Below, piece by piece: positions 27,501 to 51,500 of a DNA stretch of 64,000 bases. Both the position numbers and the translations under genes were made by a program. Under the pieces are notes generated by a model. That model worked only from the letters and a program-made list of their open reading frames with translations. It was not told the DNA's origin and ran no database searches. The first letter of the stretch is position 1. Every line of letters begins with the position of its first letter. Source of the DNA: Tubiluchus corallicola (taxonomy: Eukaryota > Animalia > Priapulida); the NCBI GenBank assembly GCA_030141605.1, contig JAQGDQ010000693.1:1-64000 (forward strand). Reading direction: 5' to 3'.

Positions 27501-30500
27501 GTTTTTATAATAAAAGTCTGAGAATAAAGTGAACTGCTTGCTGCCTTCTGGCATGTGACTTTAAAGACTAATATTACATTAAATTTAAGCTGCCAAATTG
27601 AAAAATATTTCTTACACATGTAGAAAACGTGTGAATTCACTTTACTTCATTGTGTATGATTCTAGTACATTTTTGCTACTTGAAACAGTGTTTTGAGCAA
27701 GCTGCTGAATTTTGTCTGAAGTGCAAACATGCTGTTCACTTTCAATTGTCCACAAGTTGATAAAGCAGATGTTCTCTTATTAAAGAGTATTTTTCAGTGT
27801 TTCAAAGTGATGAGCGGTATTAAATCTATTAACTAAATTTGTTGTGCTTTCTCTCTGCACTTTTTTTTGTCTAAAGATAATTTGGCTTATCTGTAACAAT
27901 TACAGTATCATATGTAGGAATGATCTATTAATATTGTTTCATGGTGTAACTTCTGTTGCAATGCTTTTATTAAACAAAATAATAATATTATCATGCTTTA
28001 TTGACTGAAGGCTGCAACTGAATATTTTATTTTGTGCTTTTTCTGCTTGGTTTCTTGCAAATGGTTGATATTTCGCTTCTGTTGCTGTGTTTGTAAACTA
28101 TATGTTTTTGCATGTTATTTTCTTTTCTCAGACACTTCTAGTGACACCAGATGATATGCGAAACATGGACACAGTGTCACACTCACTCTTAACACAAACA
28201 ATCACCACTAAAACATTTGAAATTTCTGACACCACGGCTCATAAAACAGTAGAGCAACAGCCTGCTGTTACTGCTGAAGTTGACATTGAAGTGTTGGAAG
28301 TTGATTCGGATGTGCAACCAGATAAAATGAAAAGTGGCAAACCCTTAGAAATTGGTTTACCTAATGTTAATCTCCTGCAGCCATTAACAATAGAGACAAC
28401 TGCATCTGATGTTGTTGACAGGTGCGAGCAATCATCAGAATTAGAAACACCTGAACCTTCTGAAGTGGTTAGTATCGATGTTCAGCTTGAGAAACCGTCA
28501 GAGCCGGAAATTCATCCTGTTGATGTTTCTGTTGAAATTCCATCTGAAATTACAGCAAGCAGTACTGCAACATATATAACCGCTGAAGTAGAAACTAGCA
28601 AAGTTGATGTCGATCACGTGCCAGCTTCAGAATCATGGTCTACAATTAATCTTAAACTTGAACAGCAATCAGACTTGCAAAGTCTCGCTATTGATTTGAC
28701 ACGCGAAGCTCCTACTCAAACAATCACTGCTGAAGTTGAACATGAACAGTCTTTAGAATTAGCTGCAGCAGCTGTAGAGCAGAACAAACTGCTCCACAGT
28801 TCTTCTCTTGATCTTGAAGTTGAGCAGCTGCCTGAGGCACAAATGCCTGAGTTGACTGGCAGGAAACCTTCAGAAATCAGAACTCTTGTTGTTGATCTCA
28901 TGCAACCATCAGAAATAACTGATGTTAATGTTAAAGCTGGGCAATTGTCAGGCTTGCCTGAATTCACTGACGTGGCTGGTATTGATGTTCAGCGTAAAGA
29001 ACCAGCAGAAAACAAGATGTATCATGTTGAAATAGCTTCTGATATTACAATAGACGATACTGAGCTCCACGAAACTGCAGAAGTAGGTAGCTTGGAAACT
29101 GATATTGAGGCACTTTTAGGACCAGAACAAACTATAGTTGATGTGGACATAAGGCATGCATCTGAACAAAGAACTAGAGCTGTTGATCTGAAACAAGAAA
29201 GCCTTATTGAAACAGTTCATAAAATTGAACCAGCACAAGAAATTGAAAAAGATTTGGTTGCTGTTGAATTACAACATAAGGAAACTCCCAAATTTTCATC
29301 TGCAGAGCTCGAAAAGGAACAAATATCTGAAGTACAAAATCTTGAGCTTGAAGATGACAAACATTCAGGTACTAAACCTGTACAATTATCAGAAACAGTT
29401 AAAACAGTTGATACTGAAGTTCAGCAGCCACTAGAATTAGAAATTCCAAAACCTGCTAATGCTGATGTACAGACTGAAAGATCACCAGGAGAAGAAATAC
29501 TTCCTACTGGTCTTATTGAAACACCTTCTAAAATAACAGCAGGCGATGTTGAATTCTCTATAGAAATGGAAACCACTGACATTGCACTTGAGCAACATCC
29601 AGAAATGGAATTGTCTGCTGTTGACTTAGAACAAAGACAACCATTCCACATTGCTGATTTTGAAATTCAGCAAGTGCCTAAAATGCACACTGCTGAAATA
29701 AAAGGTGATAGACCTTCAGAAACTACTGCACTTGATACTAAACTCCTGCAACCATTAAAAATGGAGGTGGCTGAAGATAGCATTGGAGTTCAGAAACCTG
29801 CAGATATAGAAACATCTATACTCTCCAAAATGCAGGCAGCAACAGTTGGTACTTCTGCGTTATTTACATGTAAACCTTCACAAATCGAAACAACCACAGT
29901 TGATATTGAAGTTCAGTATCCATCAGATTCATATTCACCTAAACCCGTACCAACTGTGCAACGAGAATTGCATGGGTCTGTCAAGTCTCACATTGAGGTA
30001 CCTTCTAAATTGACAATAAGTGATGCTGAAACGGAAGCAGCTGAAGTTGTTACCGATCTTTTGCCAGCTTCTGGAGTGCAGACTGCAAACAATGTTATAT
30101 GGCAATACCCAGTAAAATTGGAAACTGAACCCCTTGAAACAGAAGATGAAAGTTATAAGACTGTGTTCGAACCACAGCCAAAGCAAAATTTAGTTTCTGT
30201 AGATTTAGAATTTAAGGAATCACTTGAAGCTTCTGCTACTGATGTAGGCATAGAGCATGTGCCAACTGCTGAAATGGAACCTTGTGTGGAGTCAAATTTA
30301 GGTACTATAAACCAAAAAGCAGAGTCTAGTGTGCTACTAGAAAAGAGTTTGGATTCTTCCGGCATGAAGGAACGGTCTGAAGTAATTACTGAAATGCCCA
30401 ATGAATTACTTAAAACTGAAATTGATGTGCAAGTAACTGAAGCTGTGGAAAAGCCAGATATGGTCCAGAGTATAGCTAAAATGAATGAACGTTTGAGTGA

Positions 30501-33500
30501 ATCAGCAGAAGCCTTGGCTGATTTTGATTTGCTTGAGAAAACTGAGGCTGATGCTTATGATGGATTCATTGTAATTGATGATGCTTTTGAAATTGGTACT
30601 GAAATTACAGAAAATGCTGGTAATCAAAAAAGCTCATTGCAAATAAGATCAGAAATTCTTCCCGTTGAAATGAAGCCAAGCGGCAAAGGAGATGATAGTC
30701 ACGTCAGTGATGGCAAATTTACTGCTTTACCTGTGCCATTTGCAGGGTTCGATAACTTGGCATCAAAACATGGCAGTGAACATAAAGAAGACAAATTATC
30801 AACAGTGGACACTCAAGTTACGGTTATCACCGAATGCTTAACAGAAACTATAACTGAATTTCTCGATGAACAAACAGTAGTTGAACAACCAGAAGAACTG
30901 AAAATAACCACCGTTGAAGATGAAAACAAATTTACGGAGTTAGAAATTACTGAAATAGGTCTAGTGAAACCTGCAGATGAATTTTATGACTCTACAGATT
31001 TAACCACAGTTATCAGTTCTGCTTCAGTTGACATACCATCTAATAATAAAAATGCTGCAACCACTTTACTTGATTCTTCTGAAAAACTTGATAGAACAAA
31101 ATCGAAGAAAGTCATTGTTACTGAAACAACAAAACAAACAAAGGAAACCATTTTTGATATCAAACCTACTTTTGAAGTAGAAGAAGATCAAATAAAGAAA
31201 GGCATTGCCAAAGGCATTGCCGAGAAGAAAGAGCCTATGGGTATTGCTGTACCAGCTTTATGTATCATGCAAGATGGTGACACATCTGAAATGAAAATTG
31301 ATGATTTGATCGGACATGGAATGGATGTGAAGAAAACAAAAGAAGTGAAAGCGAATGTCTGCAAGAATGAGGAGATTTCTGGAGAAGTGCAAAAATCCAC
31401 AGAAGTAATTTCAGATGTATTGGAAGTACACACACACGAACAAATGGTTTTGGATTTGGTGGAAAAGAAGCCCAAAGATGACTTGAAGAAATACTCAGAG
31501 GCAGATGTAGAGAGTGTGGATGAACCCAAAGAAACAACTTCATCTGTCATAGAAGATGAAGGAGTTCAGGAAGTGGAAGATAGAGCAATTATTACACATG
31601 ATGTGCATGGGGACTCTAATGATATCACTACATATGTGGTGAAAGAAAAGACTACTGAAGTTGTTACAGATGATGTAGAAGTGAAACCAAAAGGAATGAT
31701 TACATTTGTCGTGAAGAAAGTGAAAGAAGTGGTTACAGGTTCTGTAGATGGGCACAAACTAAAATATATGACTGCTAATACTATAGAAGAGGAGAAGTTA
31801 AAAGAATTGGTTGCTGATACTACAGAACAAGAAGAGTACAAACCAGAAAAAGTTGATGCATTTATTGTTGAAGAGAAGCCTGGTGAACTGTTTATTGATG
31901 CCAAACCAACAGAGATGATAGCAGATTTTACAGAGGTAAAGAAATCCAGCAAAGTTAATATTGATTTTGCAGGGAAGGTAAAACCTAAAGAAATTACAAT
32001 ACCTATTAAAAATAGCATAGAAGAAAAACCCAAAGAAATTAGTACTGATGAAAATATTTTGAGTATTGTCGAAGAAGAGTATAGCGAAGAATTGCTTACA
32101 GACAAGAAACCCGAGGAAATCTTTGTTGGAGTTACAGAAGAGAACAAACCAAAAAGGGTTATTGAGAACATAGTGGAGCAGAAAAATGAAGAAGCTATTA
32201 TGGATACTAGAAGGGAAAGGGCTAAGGAATTTTCTGTAGAGCATCATGCACCCGAGGAGCTTGTTCTTGTTCATTCAGAGGAGAAGCTCGAGGACATTAC
32301 ATTACAAGAAAGTCCTGAAGAAGTTATGATAGATGATTTAGAGACTATAAATTTCATAAAGGATCAACTGCCAGAAGTTGTGGACACTAGTGACAAAGAA
32401 GAATCAAAAGATTTTCTGGATGATATTTCGGAGACTGTAAATTTCATAAAGGATCAAATGCCAGAAGTTGTGGACACTAGTGAAAAAGAAGAATCGAAAG
32501 AAGTTATTCCTAAAGGTGAGGAAGAAAAAGCAGAAGAGTTTATTATGAGTCGTGCAAAAGAACAGAAACATGAAAAATTTACAGAAGTTAGTGATGATAC
32601 TATAACAGAGAAGCAACTAAAAGAAGTTGTAGCTAATCTTGCAGAACAGAAATCTCAAGAAGATGTTACAGATAGTAAAGAGGTGGAAGAAGAAGCTAAC
32701 GTGACACCAAATCTTAAAGAAGAAAAAGCAAAGGCAATTATTACTGATTCATTTGAGGAACAGAAACTTGAAGAAGTTTTTATTGGTGAGGAAGTTGTTG
32801 TGGACACTAAGGAGATGGAACAAGCCAAAGAAGGGAAGTCAAGGAAAATTACTGATTTTGTAGAGGAACTGAAACCTAAAGACATTACTGTGGGCACATC
32901 CGAGGAACTTGAAACTGGTGAAATGTTTTCAGAAATCATAGAAAAGGAGAAACAAGCAGAAGTTATCGTTAATACTATACAGGAAAAGAATTTCAGTGAA
33001 ATTACTAGTAAAAGAGACAATAGCAAAGAAATTTTTTCTGATACCGTTGAGAAGAAACCTAGAGATGTTGCTGTCATGGAATCTGTAAAAGAGCAACCTG
33101 CAGAATTTATTCTGATGACCTCCACATCAGCTACTGCTCAACAAAAAGATGTAGAAAAGTCTGTGGATTATGTAGAAGAATGTCCAGAAGTTAATACATG
33201 TGGTACCTTACTTATTGGAGATGACGGCATTCAGCCAAAATTTAGTGAGAAAGCATTTGCTCTTACTGTTGAGCCTCATAAGAAATCAGATTTAACAGAA
33301 GTAGTAAATGAACTACACAAAATTCACAAACAGGTACCATTAGTAATATCATCAGAAACAGACATATCTACATATCCAGAGGGAGCAGCAGAAACAACTG
33401 CTGATGACATCACTTTGGAAAAAATTTTACTCCAGGTAACGTCATCTAAGAAGATCAATTAATATGTATTAATTTATAAATTAATGCAGTTTGATAACTG

Positions 33501-36500
33501 TGTAAATTTTATGTATAATATTTTATAGATGGTTAGCTTTGTAAGTTTAATACAATAGTTTCATGTAATTGAATTAAAAGCGAATGTATGCAAACGGATG
33601 TTTTACTGTATTCTGCAAACTAATTTGTGGCCTTTTTATAACAGTAATGTTTAAATTTAAGTTTAAAGATTTTCTTTACATAATGTTTTATTAAAGCTGT
33701 TTGTTTCTAGTTGAGAACTTATATAGTGCATCGTCTACTCCTTGCATTTTTTCAGGGTTAAAAGTCTCTTTTTCTCCCATTTTGCAAAATTGTGTAACTT
33801 GTTTGCTCTTTAAAATGCTTTAGTTTCAGAATGTTAGCCTGCTTCTTTCAGTGTTTCATTTTTTTAATTTTTCTTTAGGAAAAATTTGAAGAGGTGCCTA
33901 TTCGTGATGCTGAAAAAGTCGATCATGTTGAGGTGGAGGTGAGCTCTCTTATCTTAACTAATATACCACTTACCTGATAACCCTGTATTATTTCCAATCT
34001 TGGAACTACAAATTCATTATATTTGTATGCGCTAAATTTATTGTCTATGCAACAGTACTGAGCGCAGGCAGACATCGATTTATTCATTATTCTTTTCCAG
34101 AGCTTTTCAACGTGTAGAATTGTTTGTTTTTGAGAAGTCAGTGCTCAAATTTGATAGAAAATAGTGAGTCTCTATTGTCAATGGACTCATTTTAATGCCG
34201 ACTTTGTGATGCCATTGAGTCTATAACATGTTACAGAAGTGTAAAACTGTCGAAACCCGAAACTTGATGTATTTTCAATTTTGGAAAATCTGAAAATCAT
34301 TGCATGTAATGAATATAAATTGTTAATTTTTAATATCAATTAATATTGAAATAAACCTACAATTATTAAAATCACAAAACAAAAGACATTCGAAAAGTTT
34401 CTTGTTTAAATTCTGACTCAGTCTCAGCTTTTTTCTTTTCTTTATAGCAATGGTTTTGCCTCAATGTGGGTTTTGTTGTTCTGTGAAAAAGACTTGGGAA
34501 ATTAAGTGATATTAGTTGATAGTTAAACAACTAGATATTGTTCTTCCACTTCAGTCAAGTATTTATGTTTGGCTTGTGTAAATAATCTGCATGTAGTTTT
34601 GCCCTCATATATCTAAATTACCTGTTGTTGACAGTGTTAAAACCTAATTAATTATGCAATTAGTGGCTGACTTGCAGGGAATGATTATCGTAATTTGCTC
34701 TGCTTGATGTGTCTGCATGAAAAAACCACAAGACAACAACTAAATGTCAGTTGTTAACTAGAAACACCTCACCAATTGCTCTAGTCTAACAGTCCTTTGC
34801 AAAATTTTTTATAAACATTTGACATCGCATGTTTCACAGATAACATTAATAACAAAAATGTAACTCATAAATTTTCCCATCATTAAGCAATATACATGGC
34901 TTGCATATCTTCTTACATATATATATATATATATGTGTGTGTGTGTATGTGTTTGTCTCTTACTTGTATGAGATATTTGCTTTCATTTTCTTTTTTGATA
35001 GTATAGATTACCAGTTTCTTGTTTACTGACTTTACACTGTTCACTGTGTGCTTTTATATTATTAATTTCTTTTGTTGCTAATTGTTATAGCTTATTTGCG
35101 TACATTAGAAGCAGTGGTGAATATGCTGCAGCAAATATATTGTAATTATTTATATTCAGATGCATTAAATTGTTATTAATCTACATGCATGACATCTGTA
35201 TCACATCTTCATTGCAACAATCAGTAAGATCATTAACTAACTTATTACCAAAATCAGTTACATCTCAAGACAAGTTTTTCATTTGGCATTCTCATACTTG
35301 GCATTCAGAAAACTGATGCACAATTTTTAATTTCGTGTTTGCTTTTTTCCTTCGGTTCTTTAGTTTTTGCTCTCTTGTACTTCTTGCACGATGCATTAAT
35401 CCCTTAAACTTGAGTTTCTAGAGCTTTGTTTGTGGTGTGCACTCTTTGGTTATTGGTTCTATTCTATCCTGTGTCTGCTTTTTACCACTTTTGTGTCTGT
35501 TGTCACAGAGATTATCACCTGTTGCTGGTAAAGATGTCGGAGAACTAGAAACAAACGTGGATGAAAGCAAACATATGCTATCAAAACAACAGAAGAAACA
35601 CAAAAAAAGGAGACGAAGGAAGAAGCAGAACAAACTTCCTGAAGTCAGTGTAGCTAATACGCGAGGGGCCATTGCTGCCTGTGAAAATGTAATGCCTGAC
35701 AAAAAGTCAAAACATGCAAAGAAGAGTAAAAAGAATTCCCCCGATCCAGAAGCTGGAGTAGTTGAAGTTGCACCTGTTCAAGATAAAGAATCTCTGCTGG
35801 AAGAATCTGAAAATTGGATTGACAACAGGAAGAGTCTGAAAGCTGTATCCGAACAAGCATCACAGTTAATATGTACAACAGCTGACAATGTGTTGAATGA
35901 AGAAGATGATGAATTGGCCACTCACCTTGCTGAAATAAGAGCAAAATTGTTAAATTTGTCAAGCACTGTTTCTCCGCCAGAAGAGACTGAAGATAAATCC
36001 CTTCCAATTATTGATAATACAAGTGCTGTTGACCATGATTCCATTAATAGTGATGGAATGCAGATTTTTGGTGATATTGTGCCCGAAGAAACAATATCTG
36101 AGCAAATTCATATAGAGCAGGGTATGGCTGAATTAATGTCAAACATTCAAAAAATAAAGGACAGAGTTGGAATTTATGATTCTAGTCTGACATTGCTGGA
36201 AGAAGTAGCGCAGACTAACGGCTATCAAAATGAAGATGATGAGTTAGGCAAACCATTAGACCCTGAGTTGTCATTTAAAAATGCAGTGGATGAAGTTCCA
36301 GATGAATCCATTGAACTGGCAGAAGAAAGTGTCCAACTTCAAGAGGTTGAGGTAGAAAATGATCTTTGTTTGCAGCTTGCTGCATTGAAGCAGAAGCTTA
36401 AAAATCTCTCAGAAGCTGCATCATTTAAACTCGAGGAATTGTCAGAAGATGATGTAAAAGCATTAGACATTGATCATGCTAAACTTGGTGATATTTCTGA

Positions 36501-39500
36501 ATTTGTCCAGGAAACAGGTCTTATTCAGTCTAGCATAGCAGAGGCAGAGCCTGTTTGTTGCGTGGACGAAGTAAAAAAACCAGCTGAAACTATTATTAAT
36601 TTTCCAGAAGAAACAGACTTTGATGAACTTCAGCTTCAAATATCTAATATGAAAGCTCAGCTGCAGAAAATTATGGGTCAAACAAATAACTTAGATCAAG
36701 AACAACAACTTGAACGGTGTAAACCAGAGCCAGAGTTTGATAACGAAGTCGAACAATTCAGTATCCATGAAGCACAACGTGATTTCGAAGGCGAGCTCAG
36801 TCATTTTGATGAACCAACTCCTAGTGCCACAGTAGAATTAGCACTTAGTGATAACATACATCCGGAGACTCGGGCTGACGAGTCAGAAGACGAGCTTTAT
36901 ATGCAAGTTCTAGAATTAAGACAGAGACTTAAAAACCTAGCAGAAACTAACCAGGAACAAGAGAGTCAGCAAACTGATGTCATTCACGCACTTGATGAAC
37001 GGCAACAGGTTTGGCAAATAGATCATCAAAAACAGCCTCAATTAGACAGGAACAGTGAACCGTTTTCAGAAGCTGAAGCTGAAGCTGATACACAGATGTC
37101 AACTCCTGAAACTGAGCAGCAACTTTCTGAGATGAAACTGGATCTTGTCAAGCTAATCAAAGGTGCTGGTCTAGGAAAGTCAGCTATATTGGAAACATTT
37201 TGCGAAAACATTGATAGTAGATCCGATGAAGGCCTATTAACAAGTAATTTTGAAGACAATGATGAAGTTGAAGATACAGATGATGAAGATGACTTGCAGA
37301 CCAGAATTAATGAAACAAAGTTGCAATTGCAAATGCTTATGACTAAAATAGCAAGTGAAGAAGTTGATAAAAATGATGATTTGGCTGAGTCTGAGCTTCC
37401 AGTTGTAGGAGATCTATACATTGGCGCGAGTGATGCACAGTATGATATGGAACAACAAGTAGCTCCTACAGAAGTGCCTGTCAATACCAATCTGGTAAAT
37501 ATAGCACTGCCTGTTAACACTTCTGTATTTTCATTTTCAATTATTTATACAACAATCATGTTTTGTTTTTTTAGATTAATTTTTTTTGTCAATCATTAAA
37601 TTTCAATCATTTAATTTATTTACATGAATATAAGTAGCTGCTTTTTTATGCATTTTGCACCAGACTGCAAATGCAAATCTACTGAGTGTGTATCATTCAA
37701 TATGGATCAATATGGTCTGAGCTTGAACCGTAATGGTTCAATAAATCTTTTGGCATCAAAAGTAACTGAAAATTAACCAAATTTGTCAACTTTTATTTTT
37801 AGTACACATTTTGCAAATTATTTAAAAAAGGTACAGCGTATGCTGTCCACTGGTTGCCGCTCACGAGTTATCATATTAAGTCCTGATTACGATTGAACAG
37901 AAAACAGTCTCAATCCTGACTGGCTTAAATAGCTGATCTTGAGTGAAACAATTCTCAGTCTTTGCAAGATTTGCTGATGGGAGTTAGGTATAAATATCAC
38001 AAATCTGAACACAGATTACTGGAGACACATCAGTCTGACCTTCTCGTTAACATTTTTTACACTATAGGAAAAAAGTGCTACATGCCACATTTTCAAAATT
38101 TTTACCAATTACTAAAGTGCAATTGTACTAAAAGCTAGAGTGTTTTGCTTTACTAGGTTTCCAATTTTAGTTCATAAGTTTTGTCTATTGCACAAGTTCG
38201 TTAATGGCGTCTAAAAAAATAGACATTGCATTTTTATAGTGCTACTAACAATGTCACTGCGGAGCTTGGTACGTTTTATGCAAACAAGTGGTAAATTTCG
38301 ATTTAATATAAAATATTTTGTTGTTATAGAATGGCACTTCAACGACTGGAGAAGTTTCATTTGAAGGCGAGGTAAGTAGAGCTTTCAATAAACATGTAGC
38401 GTTATTAGTGTCACAGCTGCCTTCAGACTGGCTCACTCCATTATTCGATCACTCTAAACTATACATAAGTCTCTGGCATTTCAAACCTGCAACAGAGCGT
38501 AGAAACATGCAAATATTTTACAAGAGTTCAGCCATTTCTAAGGCCCTGAAAATTAAATACAAAATGTGTTGCAGTTTCACATTTTTTGATTGCACAATCA
38601 CACAGTTGCACTATGAAGAAATCTGTATTTAATATACTGGCCATCTCCTGGAGAATGTTGTTTCTTAATTTGAAATGTACTGCACTATATGCTGTAGCTG
38701 CAGTGTAGCAGTTTCTTAGCTGCAATTCTCTGAAGCATTATTATTGTCTTCTCTCGTGCATTTATATTTTTCTCGGCTCTTGCACAAGCTGTATATGAGT
38801 GATCAAACACACGCTAGAACACAGCACAGTCGTGTTAGACTTCTATGCTTATACTTTCAGCACATAGCTTTTCTTGCTATAATAATGCTGGTTGTGAATC
38901 TTTTGCTTTATCTTTTGCACTATATTATTGCTTTTAGTCGTTTTTCGGTTATATGGTGAAGGTTGCATGATTGTGCTTCTTATCCACGTGCGCTATCGTC
39001 GCAGATCTGTGAGAACCCCTGGCACTGATTTTCATTTTTCATTATGCTAGGCATCAGGGTAGATATGTGTCTGTGCTTTTAAAGAAATCAGACTCTCTAA
39101 GGGCCTGAGATAGGAGCCAAAATGACTAACACTGAGTAAGTCTAAAACTAGAGCAACTAGCATCATGAAATTTGCAGGGAAGACTCAAACAGCGATATGG
39201 TTTAAAAAGCTTAAAAAAAATTTAAGGGCTCGATATGGGAACCAAAGTGTGAAAATTAGGTCATCCATTTTTAATTTGTATTAACTCCTAAAGCAGGGAA
39301 CTAGAGTCTCGAAACTTGCACAAATTTTTCAAGGCCCTTCACCTGGGAGGAGGGCTTGACTGTAGTATGGTGAAAGTTGACCTCAGCTAAAAGGTCCTGG
39401 ACACTGGATCAGTCAATTTTTTATTACATGTACCATTTAACTCCACCTAGTGCTTTGAGTTAAGTTCAAAATTCTTGTCTTAGTTGTGTAGTAAAAAGCT

Positions 39501-42500
39501 GGGATTCTTTAAGGGCCAAGATAGGAGCCAAAATGTGTTACAGCTCAGTAACTCTAAAACGATAGTAACTACAGTCACGAAACTTACTGGGAAGACAGCT
39601 GGAGTCGGGATGTCAAACAAATGTGTAGTTAAATGAAAAGGCAGCATTCTTTAAGAGCCCGAAATGTGAAAATTAAGGCATCCAGTTTTGATTCACGTTA
39701 ACTCTCCAAGGGTAGACACTTGACCCATGTCAAATTTTTAAGGTATTGACGTATTGACATGAGTTAACCACACTCGACCAAATGTAGTTAGTTGTAAACA
39801 TGGTCACGGCGTTACGCTTGTGGATTTGGTTCTGTAGTCACTCAGTCTTGTCTATATTGTTTTATCTGTTTCTGTGGTGGTAGTAATATAATGATACTGG
39901 TTGCTACTCTTGAATGTTTTCATAAATTTTATATAATTTAATAGTAGTCTTTTGTTATGTCTATAAATTATTTTGGTGACAGTCCTTATTTAAAGCATGT
40001 ATTTATGTAAATCATCTGTTTAATGTTTATGTGGTTTTATTCAGTTTGGTGATGCTATGTGATTGGTTCTTTTTCTTATTCGTTTTGTTACTTCTTCTTC
40101 TTTCTAGCCCATTGTAGGATACGGAGCCATTGCGTTAACAGATCGTTCTCATACTGCTCTAACTACACAAATAAGTGATACTTATTTACCTGATTTCACA
40201 ACTGATGATAATTTACATGCAAAATTAGCTCACAACAATTTACAAATAAATCACCCTTCTACAGAAGAACATGCAATTAGTGCAGCACAAACCATAATTG
40301 AACAAGGAAAGCAAGCTGACACATTAGGTTTATCTGACATGCCGAAACAGATTGAATTACAATACAAAGAAGCACTTGAAATTTCTAAATCTGCTGATTC
40401 TGACAGAGAGCAACAACCAGAAATAGAACCTTCTACCTTGAAAAGTGACTTTGAAATTGTTAACATTGATGTTCAGCTTGAGGAACCATCGGAAATGGAA
40501 ACGCTACCTGCTAAGCTTCTTTCTGAAATAACACCAGATGATGTTGAACTTCATAAACCTACAAAAATAGAAGGTCAAGTTGATATCATGCTGCCTGAGC
40601 AACTTCCAAGAACAGACTTAGCTGCTGTTGAATTAGATCAAACTGTTCATCTTGGAATTAAGCAAGTATCCGATTTACAAATTGCTGAGATAGAAGGAGA
40701 TAAGTCTTTAGAAATCTGTGCTTTTGCTGAACATGTGGCACCATCAAAACCAAAGACAGCTTCAATTGATATTGAAATTCAGCAGCTGCCAGAATTAGAA
40801 GCTCCTAAGCCCTCAGAAATTGTTAGTATTAATGTTCAGCTCGAGAAGTCATCAGAAAAAGAAATGTTTCCTGCTGAGGTTAATATAGAGGCTCCACCTC
40901 AAATGACAGCAGAGGATATGGAGCGCTCCATAGAAATTGTTGGTACTGATGTTCACCTTGAAGAACCAGTAGAATCAGAAATGCATCCAACTGAACTTCA
41001 CATTGAGGTGCCTTCTGAAGTAACGTCAGTAGATATTGAGCCTAGCAAAATTACAGAAATAGAAACTGCTGAAATTGATATTGCACCTGAATATGAATTG
41101 GGAACAGAAATTGACATTGTTGATCTAGAGCAAGAGGTATCACCATCTCCTTCTGCTGTTGATCTTGAAATTGAGAAGCTGTCTGATTTACAAACTGCTG
41201 ACACTAAAAGTGACAAACTTCCAGAAGTTGTTGTTCTTGATGTTGAACTTATGAGGCCACCAGAATTAGAAGGTCCTAAGCCCACAGAAGCTGTTAGTAT
41301 TGATGTTCAACTAGAAAAGCCATCAGAACAAGACATGCTTCCTGCTGAGGTTAATATAGAGGCTCCACCTGGAATGACAGCAGATGATATTGAGCGTTCT
41401 ACAGAAATTGTTGGTACTGATATTCACCTTGAAGAACCAGCAGAATCAGAAATGCATCCAACTGAACTTCACATTGAGGTGCCTTCTGAAGTAACGTCAG
41501 TAGATATTGAGCCTAGCAAAATTACAGAAATAGAAACTGCTGAAATCGATATTGCACCTGAACATGAATTGGGAACAGAAATTGACATTGTTGATCTAGA
41601 GCAAGAGGTATCACCATATCCTTCTGCTGTTGATCTTGAAATTGAGAAGCTGCCTGATTTACAAACTGCTGACACTAAAAGTGAAAAACTTCCAGAAGTT
41701 GCTGTTCTTGGTGTTGAACTTATGAAGCCACCAGAATTAGAAGCTCCTAAGCCCACAGAAGCTGTTAGTATTGATGTTCAACTAGAAAAGCCGTCAGAAC
41801 AAGACATGCTTCCTGCTGAGGTTAATATAGAGGCTCCACCTGGAATGACAGCAGATGATATTGAGCTTTCTACAGAAATTGATGGTACTGATGTTCACCT
41901 TGAAAAACTAGTAGAATCAGAAATGCATCCAACTGAACTTCACATTGAGGTGCCTTCTGAGGTAACGACAGTAGATGTTGAGCTTAGCAAAATTACAGAA
42001 ATAGAAACTGCTGAAATCGATATTGCACCTGAACATGAATTGGGAACAGAAATTGACATTGTTGATCTAGAGCAAGAGGTATCACCATATCCTTCTGCTG
42101 TTGATCTTGAAATTGAGAAGCTGCCTGATTTACAAACTGCTGACACTAAAAGTGAAAAACTTCCAGAAGTTGCTGTTCTCGATGTTGAATTTATGAAGCC
42201 ACCAGAATTAGAAGCTCCTAAGCCCACAGAAGCTGTTAGTATTGATGTTCAACTAGAAAAGCCATCAGAACAAGACATGTTTCCTGCTGAGGTTAATATA
42301 GAGGCTCCACCTGGAATGACAGCAGAGGATATTGAGCGTTCTACAGAAATTGTTGGTACTGATGTTCACCTTGAAGAACCAGTAGAATCAGAAATGCAGT
42401 CAACTGAACTTCACATTGAGGTGCCTTCTGAAGTAACGTCAGTAGATATTGAGCCTAGCAAAATTACAGAAATAGAAACTGCTGAAATCGATATTGCACC

Positions 42501-45500
42501 TGAACATGAATTGGGAACAGAAATTGACATTGTTGATCTAGAACAAGTGGTATCGCCATATCCTTCCGCTGTTGATCTTGAAATTGAGAAGCTGCCTGAT
42601 TTACAAACTGCTGACACTAAAAGTGACAAACTTCCAGAAGTTGCTGTTCTTGATGTTGAATTTATGAAGCCACCAGAATTAGAGGCTCCTAAGCCCACAG
42701 AAGCTGTTAGTATTGATGTTCAACTAGAAAAGCCGTCAGAACAAGACATGTTTCCTGCTGAGGTTAATATAGAGGCTCCACTTGGAATGGCAGCAGATGA
42801 TATTGAGCGTTCTACAGAAATTGTTGGTACTGATGTTCACCTTGAAAAACCAGTAGAATCAGAAATGCATACAACTGAACTTCACATTGAGGTGCCTTCT
42901 GAAGTAATGTCAGTAGATATTGAGCCTAGCAAAATTACAGAAATAGAAACTGCTGAAATCGATATTGCACCTGAACATGAATTGGGAACAGAAATTGACA
43001 TTGTTGATCTAGAACAAGAGGTATCACCATATCCTTCTGCTGTTGATCTTGAAATTGAGAAGCTGCCTGATTTACAAACTGCTGACACTAAAAGTGACAA
43101 ACTTCCAGAAGTTGCTGTTCTTGATGTTGAACTTATGAAGCCACCAGAATTAGAAGCTCCTAAGCCCACAGAAGCTGTTAGTATTGATGTTCAACTAGAA
43201 AAGCCGTCAGAACAAGACATGCTTCCTGCTGAGGTTAATATAGAGGCTCCACCTGGAATGACAGCAGAGGATGTTGAGCATTCTACAGAAATTGTTGGTA
43301 CTGATGTTCACCTTGAAAAACCAGTAGAATCAGAAATGCATTCAACTGAACTTCACATTGAGGTGCCTTCTGAAGTAATGTCAGTAGATATTGAGCCTAG
43401 CAAAATTACAGAAATAGAAACTGCTGAAATCGATATTGCACCTGAACATGAATTGGGAACAGAAATTGACATTGTTGATCTAGAGCAAGAGGTATCACCA
43501 TATCCTTCTGCTGTTGATCTTGAAATTGAGAAGCTGCCTGATTTACAAACTGCTGACACTAAAAGTGACAAACTTCCAGAAGTTGCTGTTCTTGATGTTG
43601 AACTTATGAAGCCACCAGAATTAGAAGCTCCTAAGCCCACAGAAGCTGTTAGTATTGATGTTCAACTAGAAAAGCCGTCAGAACAAGACATGTTTCCTGC
43701 TGAGGTTAATATAGAGGCTCCATCTGAAACGACAGCAGAGGATATTGAGCGTTCTAGCAAAATTGTTGGTACTGATGTTCACCTTGAAGAACCAGTAGAA
43801 TCAGAAATGAAGTCAACTGAACTTCACATTGAGGTGCCTTCTGAAGTAACGTCAGTAGATATTGAGCTTAGCAAAATTACAGAAATAGAAACTGCTGAAA
43901 TCGATATTGCACCTGAACATGAATTGGGAACAGAAATCGATGCTGTTGACCTAGTCCACGAGATTGCTGACACAAAAAGTGACAAACTTCCAGAAATTGG
44001 TGTTCTTGATGTTGAACTCGTGAAGCCATCAGAATTAGAAGCTCCTAAGCCCACAGAAACTGTTAGTATTGATGTTCAGCTAGAAAAGCCATCAGGACAA
44101 GACGTGCTTCCTGCTGAGGTTAATATAGAGGCTCCATCTGAAACGACAGCAGATGATGTTGAGCGTTCTACAGAAATTCTTGGTACTGATGTTCACCTTG
44201 AAGAATCAGTAGAATCAGAAATGAAGTCAACTGAACTTCACATTGAGGTGCCTTCTGAAGTAACGTCTGTAGATATTGAGCCTAGCAAAATTACAGAAAT
44301 AGAAACTGCTGAAATCGATATTGCACCTGAACATGAATTGGGAACAGAAATTGACATTGTTGATCTAGAACAAGCGGTATCACCATATCCTTCCGCTGTT
44401 GATCTTGAAATTGAGAAGCTGCCTGATTTACAAACAGCTGACACTAAAAGTGACAAACTACCAGAAGTTGCTGTTCTTGATGCTGAACTTATGAAGCCAC
44501 CAGAATTAGAAGCTCCTAAGCCCACAGAATCTGTTAGTATCGATGTTCAACTAGAAAAGCCATCAGAACAAGTCATGTTTCCTGCTGAGGTTAATATAGA
44601 TGCTCCACCTGGAATGACAGCAGAGGATGTTGAGCGTACTACAGAAATTGTTGGTACTGATGTTCACCTTGAAGAATCAGTAGAATCACGTGAGGTCACT
44701 GAACTTCACATTGAGGTGCCTTCTGAAGTAACGTCAGTAGATATTGAGCTTAGCAAAATTACAGAAATAGAAACTGCTGAAATCGATATTGCACCTGAAC
44801 ATGAATTGGGAACAGAAATTGACATTGTTGATCTAGAGCAAGAGGTATCACCATATCCTTCTGCTGTTGATCTTGAAATTGAGAAGCTGCCTGATGTACA
44901 AACTGCTGACACTAAAAGTGACAAACTTCCAGAAGTTGCTGTTCTTGATGTTGAACTTATGAAGCCACCAGAATTAGAAGCTCCTAAGCCCACAGAAGCT
45001 GTTAGTATTGATGTTCAACTAGAAAAGCCGTCAGAACAAGACATGCTTCCTGCTGAGGTTAATATAGAGGCTCCACCTGGAATGACAGCAGAGGATGTTG
45101 AGCATACTACAGAAATTGTTGGTACTGATGTTCACCTTGAAGAATCAGTAGAATCAGAAATGAAGTCAACTGAACTTCACATTGAGGTGCCTTCTGAAGT
45201 AATGTCTGTAGATATTGAGCTTAGCAAAATTACAGAAATAGAAACTGCTGAAATCGATATTGCACCTGAACATGAATTGGGAACAGAAATTGACATTGTT
45301 GACCTAGTCCACGAGATTGCTGACACTAAAAGTGACAAACTTCCAGAAGTTGCTGTTCTTGATGCTGAACTTATGAAGCCACCAGAATTAAAAGCTCCTA
45401 AGCCCACAGAAGCTGTTAGTATTGATGTTCAACTAGAAAAGCCGTCAGAACAAGACATGTTTCCTGCTGAGGTTAATATAGAGGCTCCACCTGGAATGAC

Positions 45501-48500
45501 AGCAGAGGATGTTGAGCGTACTACAGAAATTGTTGGTACTGATGTTCACCTTGAAGAATCAGTAGAATCAGAAATTGAGTCGACTGAACTTCACATTGAG
45601 GTGCCTTCTGAAGTAATGTCAGTAGATATTGAGCTTAGCAAAATTACAGAAATAGAAACTGCTGAAATCGATATTGCACCTGAACATGAATTGGGAACAG
45701 AAATTGACATTGTTGATCTAGAGCAAGAGGTATCACCATATCCTTCTGCTGTTGATCTTGAAATTGAGAAGCTGCCTGATTTACAAACTGCTGACACTAA
45801 AAGTGACAAACTTCCAGAAGTTGCTGTTCTTGATGTTGAACTTATGAAGCCACCAGAATTAGAAGCTCCTAAGCCCACAGAAGCTGTTAGTATCGATGTT
45901 CAACTAGAAAAGCCGTCAGAACAAGACATGTTTCCTGCTGAGGTTAATATAGAGGCTCCACCTGGAATGACAGCAGAGGATGTTGAGCATACTACAGAAA
46001 TTGTTGGTACTGATGTTCACCTTGAAGAATCAGTAGAATCAGAAATGGAGTCAACTGAACTTCACATTGAGGTGCCTTCTGAAGTAACGTCAGTAGATAT
46101 TGAGCTTAGCAAAATTACAGAAATAGAAACTGCTGAAATCGATATTGCACCTGAACATGAATTGGGAACAGAAATTGACATTGTTGATCTAGAACAAGTG
46201 GTATCGCCATATCCTTCCGCTGTTGATCTTGAAATTGAGAAGCTGCCTGATTTACAAACTGCTGACACTAAAAGTGACAAACTTCCAGAAGTTGCTGTTC
46301 TTGATGTTGAATTTATGAAGCCACCAGAATTAGAGGCTCCTAAGCCCACAGAAGCTGTTAGTATTGATGTTCAACTAGAAAAGCCGTCAGAACAAGACAT
46401 GTTTCCTGCTGAGGTTAATATAGAGGCTCCACCTGGAATGACAGCAGAGGATGTTGAGCGTTCTACAGAAATTGTTGGTACTGATGTTCACCTTGAAGAA
46501 CCAGTAGAATCAGAAATGGAGTCAACTGAACTTCACATTGAGGTGCCTTCTGAAGTAATGTCAGTAGATATTGAGCCTAGCAAAATTACAGAAATAGAAA
46601 CTGCTGAAATCGATATTGCACCTGAACATGAATTGGGAACAGAAATTGACATTGTTGATCTAGAACAAGCGGTATCACCATATCCTTCCGCTGTTGATCT
46701 TGAAATTGAGAAGCTGCCTGATTTACAAACTGCTGACACTAAAAGTGACAAACTTCCAGAAGTTGCTGTTCTTGATGCTGAACTTATGAAGCCACCAGAA
46801 TTAGAAGCTCCTAAGCCCACAGAAGCTGTTAGTATCGATGTTCAACTAGAAAAGCCGTCAGAACAAGTCATGTTTCCTGCTGAGGTTAATATAGAGGCTC
46901 CACCTGGAATGACAGCAGAGGATGTTGAGCGTACTACAGAAATTGTTGGTACTGATGTTCACCTTGAAGAATCAGTAGAATCAGAAATTGAGTCGACTGA
47001 ACTTCACATTGAGGTGCCTTCTGAAGTAACGTCTGTAGATATTGAGCCTAGCAAAATTACAGAAATAGAAACTGCTGAAATTGATATTGCACCTGAACAT
47101 GAATTGGGAACAGAAATTGACATTGTTGATCTAGAACAAGCGGTATCACCATATCCTTCTGCTGTTGATCTTGAAATTGAGAAGCTGCCTGATTTACAAA
47201 CTGCTGACACTAAAAGTGACAAACTTCCAGAAGTTGCTGTTCTTGATGCTGAACTTATGAAGCCACCAGAATTAAAAGCTCCTAAGCCCACAGAAGCTGT
47301 TAGTATTGATGTTCAACTAGAAAAGCCGTCAGAACAAGTCATGTTTCCTGCTGAGGTTAATATAGAGGCTCCACCTGGAATGACAGCAGAGGATGTTGAG
47401 CGTACTACAGAAATTGTTGGTACTGATGTTCACCTTGAAGAATCAGTAGAATCAGAAATTGAGTCGACTGAACTTCACATTGAGGTGCCTTCTGAAGTAA
47501 TGTCAGTAGATTTTGAGCTTAGCAAAATTACAGAAATAGAAACTGCTGAAATCGATATTGCACCTGAACATGAAATGGGAACAGAAATTGATGCTGTTGA
47601 CCTAGTCCACGAGATTGCTGACACAAAAAGTGACAAACTTCCAGACGTTGCTGTTCTTGATGTTGAACTTGTGAAGCCATCAGAATATGAAGTTCCTAAG
47701 CTCACAGAAGCTGTTAGTATTGATGTTCAACTAGAAAAGCCATCAGAACAAGACATGCTTCCTGCTGAGGTTAATATAGAAGCTCCACCTGGAATGACAG
47801 CAGAGGATGTTGAGCGTTCTACAGAAATTGTTGGTACTGATGTTCACCTTGAAGAACCAGTAGAATCAGACATGCATCCAACTGAACTTCACATTGAGGT
47901 GCCTTCTGAAGTAACGTCAGTAGATATTGAGCCTAGCAAAATTGCAGAAATAGAAACTGCTGATATCAATATTGCACCTGAACATGAATTGGGAACAGAA
48001 ATTGACATTGTTGATCTAGAGCAAGAGGTATCACCATATCCTTCTGCTGCTGAGCTTGAAATTGAGAAGTTGCCTGATTTACAAACTGCTGACACTAAAA
48101 GTGACAAACTTCCAGAAGTTGCTGTTCTTGATGTTGAACTTATGAAGCCACCAGAATTAGAAGCTCCTAAGCTCACAGAAGCTGTTAGTATTGATGTTCA
48201 ACTAGAAAAGCCATCAGAACAAGACATGTTTCCTGCTGAGGTTAATATAGAGGCTCCACCTGGAATGACAGCAGAGGATGTTGAGCGTTCTACAGAAATT
48301 GTTGGTACTGATGTTCACCTTGAAGAACCAGTAGAATCAGAAATGCATCCAACTGAACTTCACATTGAGGTGCCTTCTGAAGTAACGTCAGTAGATATTG
48401 AGCCTAGCAAAATTACAGAAATAGAAACTGCTGAAATCGATATTGCACCTGAACATGAATTGGGAACAGAAATTGACATTGTTGATCTAGAGCAAGAGGT

Positions 48501-51500
48501 ATCACCATATCCTTCTGCTGCTGATCTTGAAATTGAGAAGCTGCCTGATTTACAAACTGCTGACACTAAAAGTGACAAACTTCCAGAAGTTGCTGTTCTT
48601 GATGTTGAACTTATGAAGCCACCAGAATTAGAAGCTCCTAAGCTCACAGAAGCTGTTAGTATTGATGTTCAACTAGAAAAGCCGTCAGAACAAGACATGT
48701 TTCCTGCTGAGGTTAATATAGAGGCTCCACCTGGAATGACAGCAGAGGATGTTGAGCGTTCTACAGAAATTGTTTGTACTGATGTTCACCTTGAAGAACC
48801 AGTAGAATCAGAAATGGAGTCAACTGAACTTCACATTGAGGTGCCTTCTGAAGTAACGTCAGTAGATATTGAGCCTAGCAAAATTACAGAAATAGAAACT
48901 GCTGAAATCGATGTTGCACCTGAACATGAATTGGGAACAGAAATTGACATTGTTGATCTAGAGCAAGAGGTATCACTATATCCTTCTGCTGCTGATCTTG
49001 AAATTGAGAAGCTGCCTGATTTACAAACTGCTGACACTAAAAGTGACAAACTTCCAAAAGTTGGTGTTCTTGATGTTATGAAGCCGTCAGAATTACAAAC
49101 TCCTAAACCATCTGAACAAGAAGTGGTTCTTGCTGAAGTTAATGTAGAGACTTCTGAAATGACAAATGCAAAGGCTTCTTTAGAAATAACAAGTGATATG
49201 AAATATGCAACAGAAATTGTTGGTATTGATGTTCATGTTGAGGAGTCATCAGAACCAGATATACTTCCAACTGGACGTCATGATGACATGCTTGTTGAAT
49301 TAACATCAGATGTTGTTGAACATGACACATCACCGGACTTGCAAGCAATGCTTGTACCAGCCGAGTCAGATAAACCCCAAGACATATTAACACAAATTTC
49401 TGATGCACAGTTAGGTATGAAAGAACCAAAAACTACAAACATAAAATCACCATTACACATTTTAAGTACAAAAATAGGAGAACCTGCTGAGTCAGGCTTA
49501 CCAATAGCACCTCCTGAGAAACAGGACGAACAGGAACAGGTATCATATTATTTTGTTGTGGTATGTTTTGAAATGTGGAACTATTTAATTATGTTTATAA
49601 TGAGTACACTTGCAGAATTTGCTATGATTTGTCATCATATAATTAGTTCGGTGGAAAGACTTGTATCATTCTTTTGAAAGCTTTAGTCTGTAAATAAGAA
49701 AATATTTTGTATATAGTCAATATAATCATGGCTTTATATGCAACATATCAATTTTTCGTAACTTTAATTATTTTTGGTATCTTTTGGGGAATATTTCTTC
49801 CGAGGTAGCTGTTACATTTTGGTTTTCCATTTAACATATAGGTTGAAGATGCTATTGAGACAGTCAGAGAGGAGCCATTTGTTGAGCCTGGAGCAGAACC
49901 AATGCCAAAAGATGTTGATACTAAAGAAGAGACAAATGAGATAACAAAACCAGAAGATGTTGAGCTTGAAAAAGAGCCAAAAGAAGTTATAAGTGCCTTA
50001 CCCATTGACACTTTTAGAGGGGAACAAGTCACACCTCACGAGGAGTTAGAACCGGAAGATGTTGGGGCTGAACCAAACAGGGGGGAAGAAGAACCAAAAA
50101 AAGTAACAAGTGTTTTGCCCATCAAGTTGCATAGAGAGGAACCAGTCGGACCGCATGTTGAATCAAAATCAGAAGCTATTGGTGTTGAAGAAGAGCCAAA
50201 TGAAATAATAAGTGCTTTACCCATCCAATCATTTAGAGAGGAAGTAGTTAAATTTCATGTAGAGTCAAAATCTGAAGATGTTGAGACTGAAAAAGAGACA
50301 AAGGAAGTAACAATTATCTTGCCTATTGAATCATATAGAGAACCCGCTAAATCTCAAGAACCTGAAGAACAATTCAGTGAGGCATTTAGAGATGAACAAC
50401 CAGAAATAGAGGAAGTGGATCTTACAACTGTTGTTACAGAAGATTTACCCACGAACATGTGGGGGTATGATCCAAGAGAGCTTAGTTATGCAGAAGTGTT
50501 AAAGCTGGGTTTGCAAAAATTGGAACCACATGAGGATGAGACGTTTGTCACCACAGAAGAATTGCAACTTGAAGGTGGCCCAATTGAAGAGGTATATATT
50601 TGTTCAGAAACTTTGTTTGTTGTGTGTGTTATCTGTTTCTTTCTTCATCCTAAAGTTGAAAACATGTAAGAGTTTATTTACACGCAATCATGTTAGTGCA
50701 ATGATAGATTCACAAAATTTTGTGGTCACTTAAGTTTTACAGGATCGAAATTCACTAAAGTGACAATTATTATAACAAACTTTTACTGTTTACATCTTCA
50801 AAGAAAATATAAAAAATAAAAACATGTATGTTTTTAATGATGTGTTTTTAATGAACGTTGCAGGTACGGCCTGTTTATCAGGTGCATCATGATGTATTGC
50901 TGCATCGAATAATTCATCGAGTTACAGTTACTGAGATCTGGTTAACAGAAGTCGTGGAAACCTTTATGACTCGTCCTATACAACCTGGCGAAGCCAGTTA
51001 CACCTTACAAGAAAACCTTGTATGTTTTGACTTACGTCTATCATGATTGTAATGTTTAAGGTCTCTAAGATATCTACAACTACTGTTATTTAAAGTAATG
51101 TGACAATCTAGGTGAAATAGCAAAATAAAAGCAACTTTACATGACATTAAAAGATCAACGTATATTTGTGCAGTGAAAATTAAACTCAATAGGAAATAAA
51201 CTGTTTTTGAATTGATACTAGGTTTGTAACTAAATTTTACTGATGCGGAATGAGTATAGAAACTATTACGTATTTCACCTGATAATGCATGCTAGCAATT
51301 TCTTTCTTGATTTTCTAAAAGGCCTGTGTTTTTAGGTGTCATTAAAATTGTATTTGGTTGTGTTTTCTTTATAAATAAGGCATCAGGAGTAGAAAGTACA
51401 TGACACCTTCCATTTATTGTGTCATTATTATTGAATTATTATTTTTAACAGGATTTACAAGAGGCTATTAAGGCAAAAGAAAAGGAGCTTAGTAATTTAT

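What the first reader, a model, noticed from the sequence alone, without database searches (positions are those of the whole stretch)
40789..49110. Unrecognised 157-aa repeat with AHNAK-like alternating strand pattern in a single 9.4-kb exon
Seen: unit is about 27% D+E (net about -35), about 11% Pro, no Trp, and resolves into about 12 subunits of around 13 aa, [PT]E-h-x-x-h-D-h-E-h-x-K-[PL] (TEAVSIDVQLEKP, TEIVGTDVHLEEP, SEVTSVDIEPSK, PYPSAVDLEIEKL, PEVAVLDVELMKP), with a higher 39-41-aa pairing. The regular hydrophobic/acidic alternation (IDVQLE, VNIEA, LHIEV, VDLEIE) is not typical of random-coil PEVK. It is architecturally like AHNAK/AHNAK2/periaxin repeats, also encoded by one giant exon (analogy, not shown homology). 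Inference: a cation- or pH-dependent beta-forming or multivalent scaffold.
Basis: partly seen in the sequence, partly recalled or inferred. Interest (0 to 1): 0.8.

Follow-up and report, generated by a model that had tools for sequence, protein, structure and literature searches.

The report
Acidic repeat spacer inside giant nesprin
An invertebrate gene for a giant spectrin-rod protein, likely a nesprin (nucleus-to-cytoskeleton tether), carries one 9.4-kb reading frame with 18 near-identical, strongly acidic 157-residue repeats that match no protein I searched and likely form a mostly unfolded, charge-stretched spacer, much like the unrelated-looking repeats already described in the fruit-fly nesprin Msp300.

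Summary
40810-49107 holds 18 copies of a 471-bp/157-aa unit (27% D+E, net -34, Pro 9-10%, no Trp) inside a 9,432-nt phase-0/0 exon. The strand-like hydrophobic/acidic alternation and the 13-residue sub-repeat exceed shuffles; the 39-aa pairing covers only the first half of the unit. The finding did not name the host: flanking exons on the same strand are spectrin repeats of nesprin-1 type, so the gene is likely nesprin-1/Msp300 (no CH or KASH domain in the window). No relative of the unit was found in protein, structure or metagenome searches, and AHNAK's PDZ domain is not in the window. Older, 28-35% identical copies lie in an upstream giant exon. They keep acidity, low aromatics and the alternation, while the young copies vary almost neutrally (pN/pS 0.87-0.89). 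AlphaFold2 gives no confident fold. Best reading: a likely skippable, mostly disordered polyanionic spacer with about 190 short strand-prone motifs. The close precedent is Drosophila Msp300-PE (about 20 x 108-aa acidic, beta-predicted, lineage-specific repeats). The scan noted a similar exon in an echinoderm nesprin on other DNA. New sequence, known kind.

The parts
40108..49539 (+). Giant exon, 9,432 nt, 3,144 codons, phase 0 at both ends (predicted skippable cassette exon)
   Evidence: Open frame 40108-49677; AG and GT sites and phases; junctions not bridged by any laid contig
40810..49107 (+). Array of 18 units of the 157-aa (471-bp) acidic repeat; three units lack the same 19 aa; net charge -598
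40402..40809 (+). Degenerate copy of the unit before the array
   Evidence: profile of the 18 units, E 4.9e-6, profile positions 25-157
49096..49320 (+). Degenerate half copy after the array
   Evidence: E 2.1e-7, profile positions 10-77
28456..29769 (+). Three old copies of the same unit (28-35% identity to the young unit), in register, inside the upstream giant exon
   Evidence: E 3.6e-17, 3.8e-5 and 2.6e-10; local score 215 against 68+/-8 for 200 shuffles and 83 for the reversed unit; alignment A1
28132..33435 (+). Upstream giant acidic exon, 5,304 nt, phase 0/0 (predicted)
25193..26809 (+). Acidic exon (acceptor not fixed; donor 26809, phase 0); begins with a helical-looking stretch
35509..37494 (+). 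Acidic exon with a basic Lys/Arg patch and recurring short helical motifs, phase 0/0 (predicted)
   Evidence: contig of run X6 on 35507-35678
49842..50591 (+). Acidic exon next downstream, spliced to the exon at 50864
   Evidence: GT..AG joint 50589/50862 (cut +2) in one contig of run X6; phase 0
2218..2538 (+). Host gene: spectrin-repeat exon of nesprin-1 type (upstream rod)
   Evidence: Pfam PF25034 Spectrin_SYNE1 E 8.7e-7, 29 bits, under the 35-bit cut-off; Atlas first hit 0.96, cluster named Nesprin-1 spectrin repeats
18779..19045 (+). Host gene: spectrin-repeat exon
   Evidence: PF25034 E 2.4e-4
62929..63081 (+). Host gene: spectrin-repeat exon downstream of the acidic block
   Evidence: PF00435 E 1.3e-6, PF25034 E 9.9e-4

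Best explanation
The array is 18 young tandem copies of an old 157-residue acidic unit inside one giant exon of a spectrin-rod gene that is likely nesprin-1/Msp300, and it likely works as a mostly unfolded, charge-stretched spacer or spring that would be spliced into some isoforms of the rod. Shown: the array, its composition, the 2- and 13-residue patterns, older copies upstream, in-frame-only length changes, spectrin exons on both sides. Inferred: (1) host identity as nesprin; (2) inclusion as a cassette exon, from phase-0 ends; (3) disorder, from charge-hydropathy, near-neutral residue change and no confident fold; (4) mechanics: about 600 net negative charges would keep 2,766 residues expanded and let them extend to about 1 micrometre (0.38 nm per residue, recalled constant) before the helical spectrin repeats unfold, lengthening and softening the tether between nucleus or ER and cytoskeleton; (5) the roughly 190 short hydrophobic-acidic motifs between prolines would be transient strands or weak docking sites for basic cytoskeletal proteins, not a stable fold; (6) copy number would change by unequal crossing-over, with selection on frame, charge and pattern and little on single residues.
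For: Host: 6 of 44 exon-sized stretches hit Spectrin or Spectrin_SYNE1 at E<=0.033 (two of them identical copies) and a seventh hit Spectrin_Dys-1 at 0.035; Atlas 0.96 with ten of ten best family hits in one clan; a contig of a guessed-RNA run joins the acidic exon 49842-50591 to the next small exon. Disorder: mean scaled hydropathy 0.462 under the Uversky boundary 0.491, NCPR -0.22, aromatics 1.2%; AlphaFold2 pLDDT 42.5 (single sequence, 2 units) and 53.0 with pTM 0.10 and no strands (8-row alignment); Foldseek 0 PDB matches at E<=0.001. Residue-level relaxation: pN/pS 0.87 pairwise and 0.89 on distinct variants, binomial p 0.30; 31 synonymous variants against 30.2 expected; in run X6, 22 of 29 codons with listed differences change the residue (only the differences that one search listed). 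Frame kept: no stop in 3,144 codons against 4.2 expected from the variant spectrum (its one 'stop' row is an artefact of scoring two changes in a codon singly, the frame is open) and all unit-length changes are whole codons. Composition kept: old copies hold 20-25% D+E and 1.2-2.0% aromatics against 12-13% and 6% after neutral change to the same identity, or 18% and 3.8% at half that distance. Precedent: Msp300-PE repeats, negatively charged, found only in Drosophila (PMC11230431); MSP300 filaments extend 1.2-fold under stretch (PMC4442817); ANC-1 repeat number matters for anchorage (PMC8139857).
Against: No CH or KASH domain lies in the window and all spectrin hits are under Pfam's cut-offs; 37 of 44 stretches gave no spectrin-type hit. 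No contig bridges the giant exon's junctions, and run X6 is only guessed to be RNA. Hydropathy lies only 0.03 under the boundary and V+I+L make 26%, high for a pure coil. The alternation is kept in the old copies (lag-1 -0.22 to -0.33, 5-8 motifs) beyond neutral decay from a unit like today's (-0.12+/-0.08 and 2.1+/-1.5 at full distance, -0.20+/-0.07 and 3.9+/-1.9 at half), and hydrophobic-to-polar changes among young copies are 3 against 8.2 expected (p 0.04, one of 8 classes tested), so the motifs probably do something. AlphaFold2 had no deep alignment, so low confidence is weak evidence of disorder. pN/pS among copies this young and homogenised has little power.
Confidence: 0.55

Rival explanations
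1. Conditional beta scaffold: the chain is open at rest, but the strand motifs zip into beta structure on binding basic partners or on charge screening by Ca2+ or low pH, so that 18 units form a multivalent platform that would recruit microtubule organisers (Patronin/CAMSAP, spectraplakin) to the nuclear surface, as the Msp300-PE isoform does.
For: Period-2.15 alternation and 10-11 motifs per unit; pattern kept in old copies; the single-sequence model puts 13 short strands on the motifs; FCR 0.32 with NCPR -0.22 is a context-sensitive range (classification recalled); Msp300-PE repeats are predicted as beta sandwiches by AlphaFold 3, the isoform is needed for Shot and Patronin recruitment, and the authors suggest Patronin's basic regions may bind the repeats (PMC11230431).
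Against: The alignment-based model has no strands; near-neutral pN/pS; retention of hydrophobic class in old copies (61-79%) is what the codon table alone gives (67-70%+/-7); in run X6 one motif isoleucine reads as aspartate; for titin poly-E, Ca2+ and low pH increase flexibility (PMC9100103, abstract); the role of the repeats themselves in Msp300-PE was not tested in the passages read.
Confidence: 0.25
2. Tolerated expansion: the 18-fold array arose by unequal crossing-over in an already acidic, disordered exon and is merely kept in frame; its length does no work.
For: pN/pS near 0.9; only about three old copies in the upstream exon; contigs of run X6 go on unlike the unit beyond short matched pieces (loose ends), so relatives may not share this higher-order unit; other stretches of this gene are also duplicated in tandem.
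Against: Acidity and low aromatics are held against neutral drift in old copies; repeat number matters in ANC-1 (PMC8139857); similar arrays recur in nesprins of flies (PMC11230431).
Confidence: 0.13
3. Each 157-aa unit is a stably folded beta domain or part of a beta solenoid, so that the array is a stiff beads-on-a-string rod.
For: Fixed unit length, register kept over 28-35% identity; V+I+L 26%.
Against: Net -34 per unit, 2% Gly, about 1% aromatics, 10% Pro; three units lose 19 residues, including a whole motif, and stay in the array; pLDDT nowhere 70 or more in either model; no structural or PDB sequence match.
Confidence: 0.07

Closest known systems
Drosophila Msp300 (nesprin-1) isoform PE/PG Type 1 and Type 2 repeats (PMC11230431; passages, figure legends and supplement text read, Fig. 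8 image not seen)
   Same: About 20 highly similar tandem copies of a 100-160-aa unit in a nesprin gene; overall negative charge; beta strands predicted; homologs only in a narrow lineage; isoform-restricted region.
   Different: Unit 157 aa against 108 and 101 aa; no sequence match surfaced (the fly sequence was not in hand for a direct comparison); here spectrin exons lie on both sides, whereas Msp300-PE has only two spectrin repeats and its own membrane anchor; my AlphaFold2 models gave no sandwich.
C. elegans ANC-1 six 903-aa tandem repeats (PMC8139857, passages read)
   Same: Near-identical, homogenised tandem repeats inside a giant KASH protein; copy number matters for function.
   Different: ANC-1 repeats are predicted helical, spectrin-like bundles; this unit is acidic, Pro-rich and strand-patterned.
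Titin PEVK/poly-E region (PMC9100103, abstract read)
   Same: Disordered, Glu-rich spring between folded domains, sensitive to pH and Ca2+.
   Different: P+E+V+K only 43%, K 4.7%, many D, I, L, S, T; regular hydrophobic alternation; host is a spectrin rod, not an Ig/Fn3 chain.
AHNAK, AHNAK2, L-periaxin (PMC10682155 and PMC7072810, passages read)
   Same: Giant exon with many 128- or 165-aa units (AHNAK, AHNAK2); the periaxin tail is described as predicted disordered and as a possible spacer.
   Different: Their N-terminal PDZ domain is not in the window; no sequence match; periaxin's PEVK and AHNAK2-like regions are polyampholytic or slightly basic, this unit is a polyanion; host has spectrin repeats.
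Giant ankyrins (Drosophila Ank2-L/XL; PMC6703079, passages read)
   Same: A cytoskeletal adaptor extended by large exons that are not conserved between lineages and that organise microtubules.
   Different: Different host family; no sequence match.

Membership tests
Nesprin-1/Msp300 (host gene) | Long rod of spectrin repeats of SYNE type | tested here: met
   PF25034 or PF00435 hits in 6 of 44 exon-sized stretches at E<=0.033, on both sides of the acidic block, all under the curated cut-offs; Atlas 0.96
Nesprin-1/Msp300 (host gene) | N-terminal paired CH domains | not testable with these tools
   The gene runs off the window's left end; no genome is held
Nesprin-1/Msp300 (host gene) | C-terminal transmembrane + KASH domain | not testable with these tools
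   The gene runs off the window's right end; no genome is held
Nesprin-1/Msp300 (host gene) | Orthology by a named full-length homolog or tree | tested here: inconclusive
   Word-seeded search with exon 2218-2544 found none among 195 candidates of 192-2000 aa; metagenome scan gave one 15-residue match
Msp300-PE Type 1/2 repeats | About 20 similar tandem copies, net negative, in a nesprin gene | tested here: met
   18 copies, net -34 each; host likely nesprin
Msp300-PE Type 1/2 repeats | Sequence homology to the 108- or 101-aa units | tested here: inconclusive
   phmmer over 1.84 billion representatives gave one unrelated hit; I could not confirm that the fly protein is in that library and did not have its sequence
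Msp300-PE Type 1/2 repeats | Predicted folded-back beta sandwich | tested here: inconclusive
   Short strands at pLDDT under 60 in one model, none in the other; different predictor from the paper's
AHNAK/AHNAK2/periaxin | N-terminal PDZ domain in small exons before the giant exon | tested here: not met
   No PDZ hit in 64 scanned stretches of the window; the upstream exons are spectrin repeats
AHNAK/AHNAK2/periaxin | Homology to the 128- or 165-aa central repeat | tested here: not met
   No such hit at E<=0.001 (all lengths; 30-1728 aa) or at E<=0.1 (1729-5502 aa)
AHNAK/AHNAK2/periaxin | Repeats encoded in one giant exon | tested here: met
   9,432-nt exon; shared architecture only
Titin PEVK | Composition dominated by P, E, V, K, flanked by Ig domains | tested here: not met
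   P+E+V+K 43%; flanks are spectrin repeats

The most novel reading that the evidence does not exclude
Giant nesprins have repeatedly and independently gained exons of acidic, strand-patterned tandem repeats (flies, this worm-like invertebrate, echinoderms), and these are one convergent functional module: an open polyanion whose ~13-residue motifs zip into beta structure on basic microtubule-organising proteins or on Ca2+, making a load- or ion-switched multivalent scaffold at the nuclear surface. This unit would be a new, independently evolved family of that module.
Probability: 0.2. Interest if true: 0.7.

Novelty: new variant of a known kind. Interest (0 to 1): 0.38.

Why it matters
The sequence family is new, but the design (a lineage-specific acidic repeat array in a giant exon of a nesprin) is described for Drosophila Msp300-PE, where the repeats have no assigned function. 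A second, unrelated-looking case with both young and old copies in one gene shows what is held constant (frame, charge, low aromatics, two-residue alternation, 13-residue spacing) and what is free (single residues, copy number). That gives a testable rule for what such inserts do in nuclear anchoring and perinuclear microtubule organisation, and a compact 157-aa unit for biophysics.

Tried and rejected
Pfam hit bCoV_NSP3_N on the whole exon (E 4.9e-7): no single stretch passes and one unit gives 0 families, so it is a sum of weak compositional matches. P0001, the only phmmer hit (E 5.9e-9, 32% over unit residues 85-154), is a snail protein whose match is a different short low-complexity repeat: rejected as a homolog. 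Atlas on two units: best score 0.76, low recognition, no lead. Word-seeded searches of the repeat: none among 7,990 candidates of 30-1728 aa and none among 4,787 of 1729-5502 aa; proteins over 5,502 aa were covered only. PDB sequence search with A1: one hit at E 2.4. Foldseek on the low-confidence model: 0 matches at E<=0.001; weak antibody and fibronectin rows are meaningless for such a model; VIA-align was not run for that reason. Metagenome scans: 0 of 439 candidates for the unit; 1 of 98 for a spectrin exon, a 15-residue match (L001) not followed. No RNA holder on record was listed. Run X5 has no cover over most of the array; this proves nothing. Summed contig depth over the array in X1 and X6 is not a copy number and was not used. 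SIM-like motifs: 2 per unit against 2.0 in shuffles; no LIR: rejected. Hydrophobic-class retention in old copies: explained by the codon table: rejected as evidence of selection. Assembly artefact: unlikely, since copies differ by 2-12% and contigs from two studies lie on the array. Paper searches for C. elegans TTN-1 PEVT and for Msp-300 with PEVK gave nothing. No complex was predicted: no partner was in hand.
Full report
Observation. The + strand has an open frame at 40108-49677. TRF finds a 471-bp array over 40789-49077. An anchor motif resolves 18 units, 40810-49107: 13 of 17 spacings are 157 aa, three are 138 aa with the same 19-aa loss, one is 156 aa. Copies are 88-98% identical in DNA. 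D+E is 27%, net charge -34 per unit, Pro 9.7%, Trp absent. The hydrophobic alternation (period 2.15, p 0.006; 11 motifs against 2.1 in shuffles) and the 13- and 39-residue self-similarity (z 5.2 and 4.4) exceed chance. The 39-aa pairing joins only the first two quarters of the unit (19 of 39 identical); the other five quarter pairs do not align. Splice-site scoring gives an exon of 9,432 nt, 40108-49539, phase 0 at both ends. Contigs from two studies lie on the array, and copies differ too much for an assembly echo.

Host gene. The window is one + strand gene of many small exons with a block of large acidic exons between 25 and 55 kb (about 6,600 codons in six exons). Small exons on both sides read as spectrin repeats: 6 of 44 stretches hit PF25034 (nesprin-1 spectrin repeats) or PF00435 at E<=0.033, best 8.7e-7 and 1.3e-6, all under the curated cut-offs, as expected for part-domain exons; 37 gave no spectrin-type hit. 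The Atlas places exon 2218-2538 next to clusters named nesprin-1 spectrin repeats (0.96). A named homolog was not retrieved, and CH and KASH ends lie outside the window (no genome). Nesprin-1/Msp300 is therefore likely, not proven. The large exons with both ends scored have phase-0 ends, so each could be skipped in frame. One contig of a run guessed to be RNA (X6, mostly 80-90% alike to the window) joins exon 49842-50591 to the next small exon at a GT..AG joint and other X6 contigs lie on the array and on the exon's unique 3' end. No contig bridges the giant exon's own junctions. Earlier notes of the scan call this genome priapulid-like; I did not test that.

Relatives of the unit. None outside the gene: Pfam 0 families for one unit; phmmer over 1.84 billion representatives gave one compositional hit to an unrelated snail repeat; word-seeded searches, PDB sequences, Atlas, metagenomes and the scan's own index were blank. 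Inside the gene the unit is old: a profile of the 18 copies finds three in-register copies at 28456-29769 in the upstream 5.3-kb exon (E 3.6e-17, 3.8e-5, 2.6e-10) and degenerate copies on both edges of the array, 28-35% identical to the young unit. The history is thus 13-aa motif, a 39-aa duplication, a 157-aa unit present in two exons, then a recent 18-fold expansion in one.

What is conserved. Among the young copies pN/pS is 0.87-0.89, not different from neutral (p 0.30); synonymous variants are 31 against 30.2 expected; hydrophobic-to-polar changes are 3 against 8.2 (p 0.04) and D/E swaps 10 against 4.8 (p 0.02), each one of eight classes tested; stops are 0 against 4.2 expected. In X6, 22 of the 29 codons with listed differences change the residue (one search listed only part of the differences). 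In the old copies, retention of hydrophobic class (61-79%) equals the neutral expectation (67-70%), but acidity (20-25% against 12-13%) and low aromatics (1.2-2.0% against 6%) are held. The alternation (lag-1 -0.22 to -0.33; 5-8 motifs) is stronger than neutral decay from today's unit predicts (-0.12 or -0.20; 2-4 motifs); a more regular ancestor could explain part of this. Selection therefore appears to act on frame, charge and pattern, little on residues.

Structure. The array lies on the disordered side of the charge-hydropathy boundary (0.462 against 0.491), with FCR 0.32, NCPR -0.22, 2% Gly and 1.2% aromatics, but 26% V+I+L. AlphaFold2 on two units without alignment gave pLDDT 42.5, pTM 0.23 and 13 short strands on the motifs; with the 8-row alignment it gave pLDDT 53.0, pTM 0.10 and no strands. 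Foldseek found nothing at E<=0.001. Shallow alignments make these weak tests.

Mechanism. The most likely reading (0.55) is a mostly disordered polyanionic spacer or spring, spliced into some isoforms of the rod. Net charge -598 over 2,766 residues would keep it expanded; its contour length would be about 1.05 micrometre (recalled constant). The roughly 190 motifs would be transient strands or weak docking sites. A conditional beta scaffold for microtubule organisers is the main rival (0.25), then a tolerated expansion (0.13) and a stably folded domain (0.07).

Comparison. PMC11230431 (passages, figure legends and supplement text read; Fig. 8 image with the sequences not seen) describes in Drosophila Msp300-PE about 20 copies of a 108-aa unit and 19 of a 101-aa unit, negatively charged, predicted as beta sandwiches by AlphaFold 3, homologous only among Drosophila species, function undescribed; the isoform is needed for the perinuclear microtubule-organising centre. 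This is the same design. ANC-1 has six near-identical 903-aa helical repeats whose number matters (PMC8139857, passages). MSP300 filaments stretch 1.2-fold (PMC4442817, passages). PMC8616381 (passages) gave isoform context only. AHNAK and AHNAK2 share the giant-exon layout but have a PDZ head and 128- or 165-aa units (PMC10682155, passages); the periaxin tail is itself predicted disordered (PMC7072810, passages). Titin poly-E becomes more flexible with Ca2+ or low pH (PMC9100103, abstract). Giant ankyrins gained non-conserved large exons (PMC6703079, passages). I found no paper on this unit or on such arrays in nesprins of other invertebrates in searches (open-access library only). The scan's note e1-7881184 reports a 9.3-kb exon with 13 beta-rich repeats in an echinoderm nesprin; it is unchecked and shares no words with this unit.

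Verdict. Real feature, new sequence family, known kind of structure. Interest 0.38; 0.7 if the conditional-scaffold reading proved general across nesprins (probability 0.2).

Noticed in passing
window:166-1631: Exact (100%) tandem duplication of 733 bp that carries one spectrin exon twice (359-520 and 1092-1253); either very recent or an assembly echo.
   Followed up: no
window:6692-18600: A cassette of several spectrin exons is repeated about three times at a spacing near 3.7-4.6 kb, 67-90% identical including some intron DNA, recalling the tandem rod repeats of ANC-1.
   Followed up: partly
window:35509-37494: Acidic exon with a Lys/Arg cluster near its start and about six short helical motifs of the form acidic-L-x-x-Q-L-x-x-L-K/R-x-x-L separated by acidic linkers (read by eye; a strict pattern caught two); no Pfam family.
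   Followed up: partly
window:50460-50520 and 51750-51810: Two neighbouring exons share a motif Y(D/G)-x-x-x-L-(S/T)Y-x-E-(V/M)-L; I recall similar 'SYAE' motifs from insect Msp300, which no call tested.
   Followed up: no
window:31282-33435: A second, Lys/Glu-rich region of the 5.3-kb exon has a 13-residue hydropathy period without the two-residue alternation (lag-13 0.12-0.21).
   Followed up: partly
window:40362-40622: One low-depth contig of run X5 lacks a net 258 nt (86 codons) before the array, an in-frame length difference; depth 2.5, may be an error.
   Followed up: no
window:52236-53237: A contig of run X5, listed as probable DNA, joins two exons at a GT..AG 1,000-nt intron: RNA in that run, or intron loss.
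   Followed up: no
window:39100-39800: Intron just before the giant exon holds a dispersed repeat element: high summed depth, many joints and loose ends.
   Followed up: no
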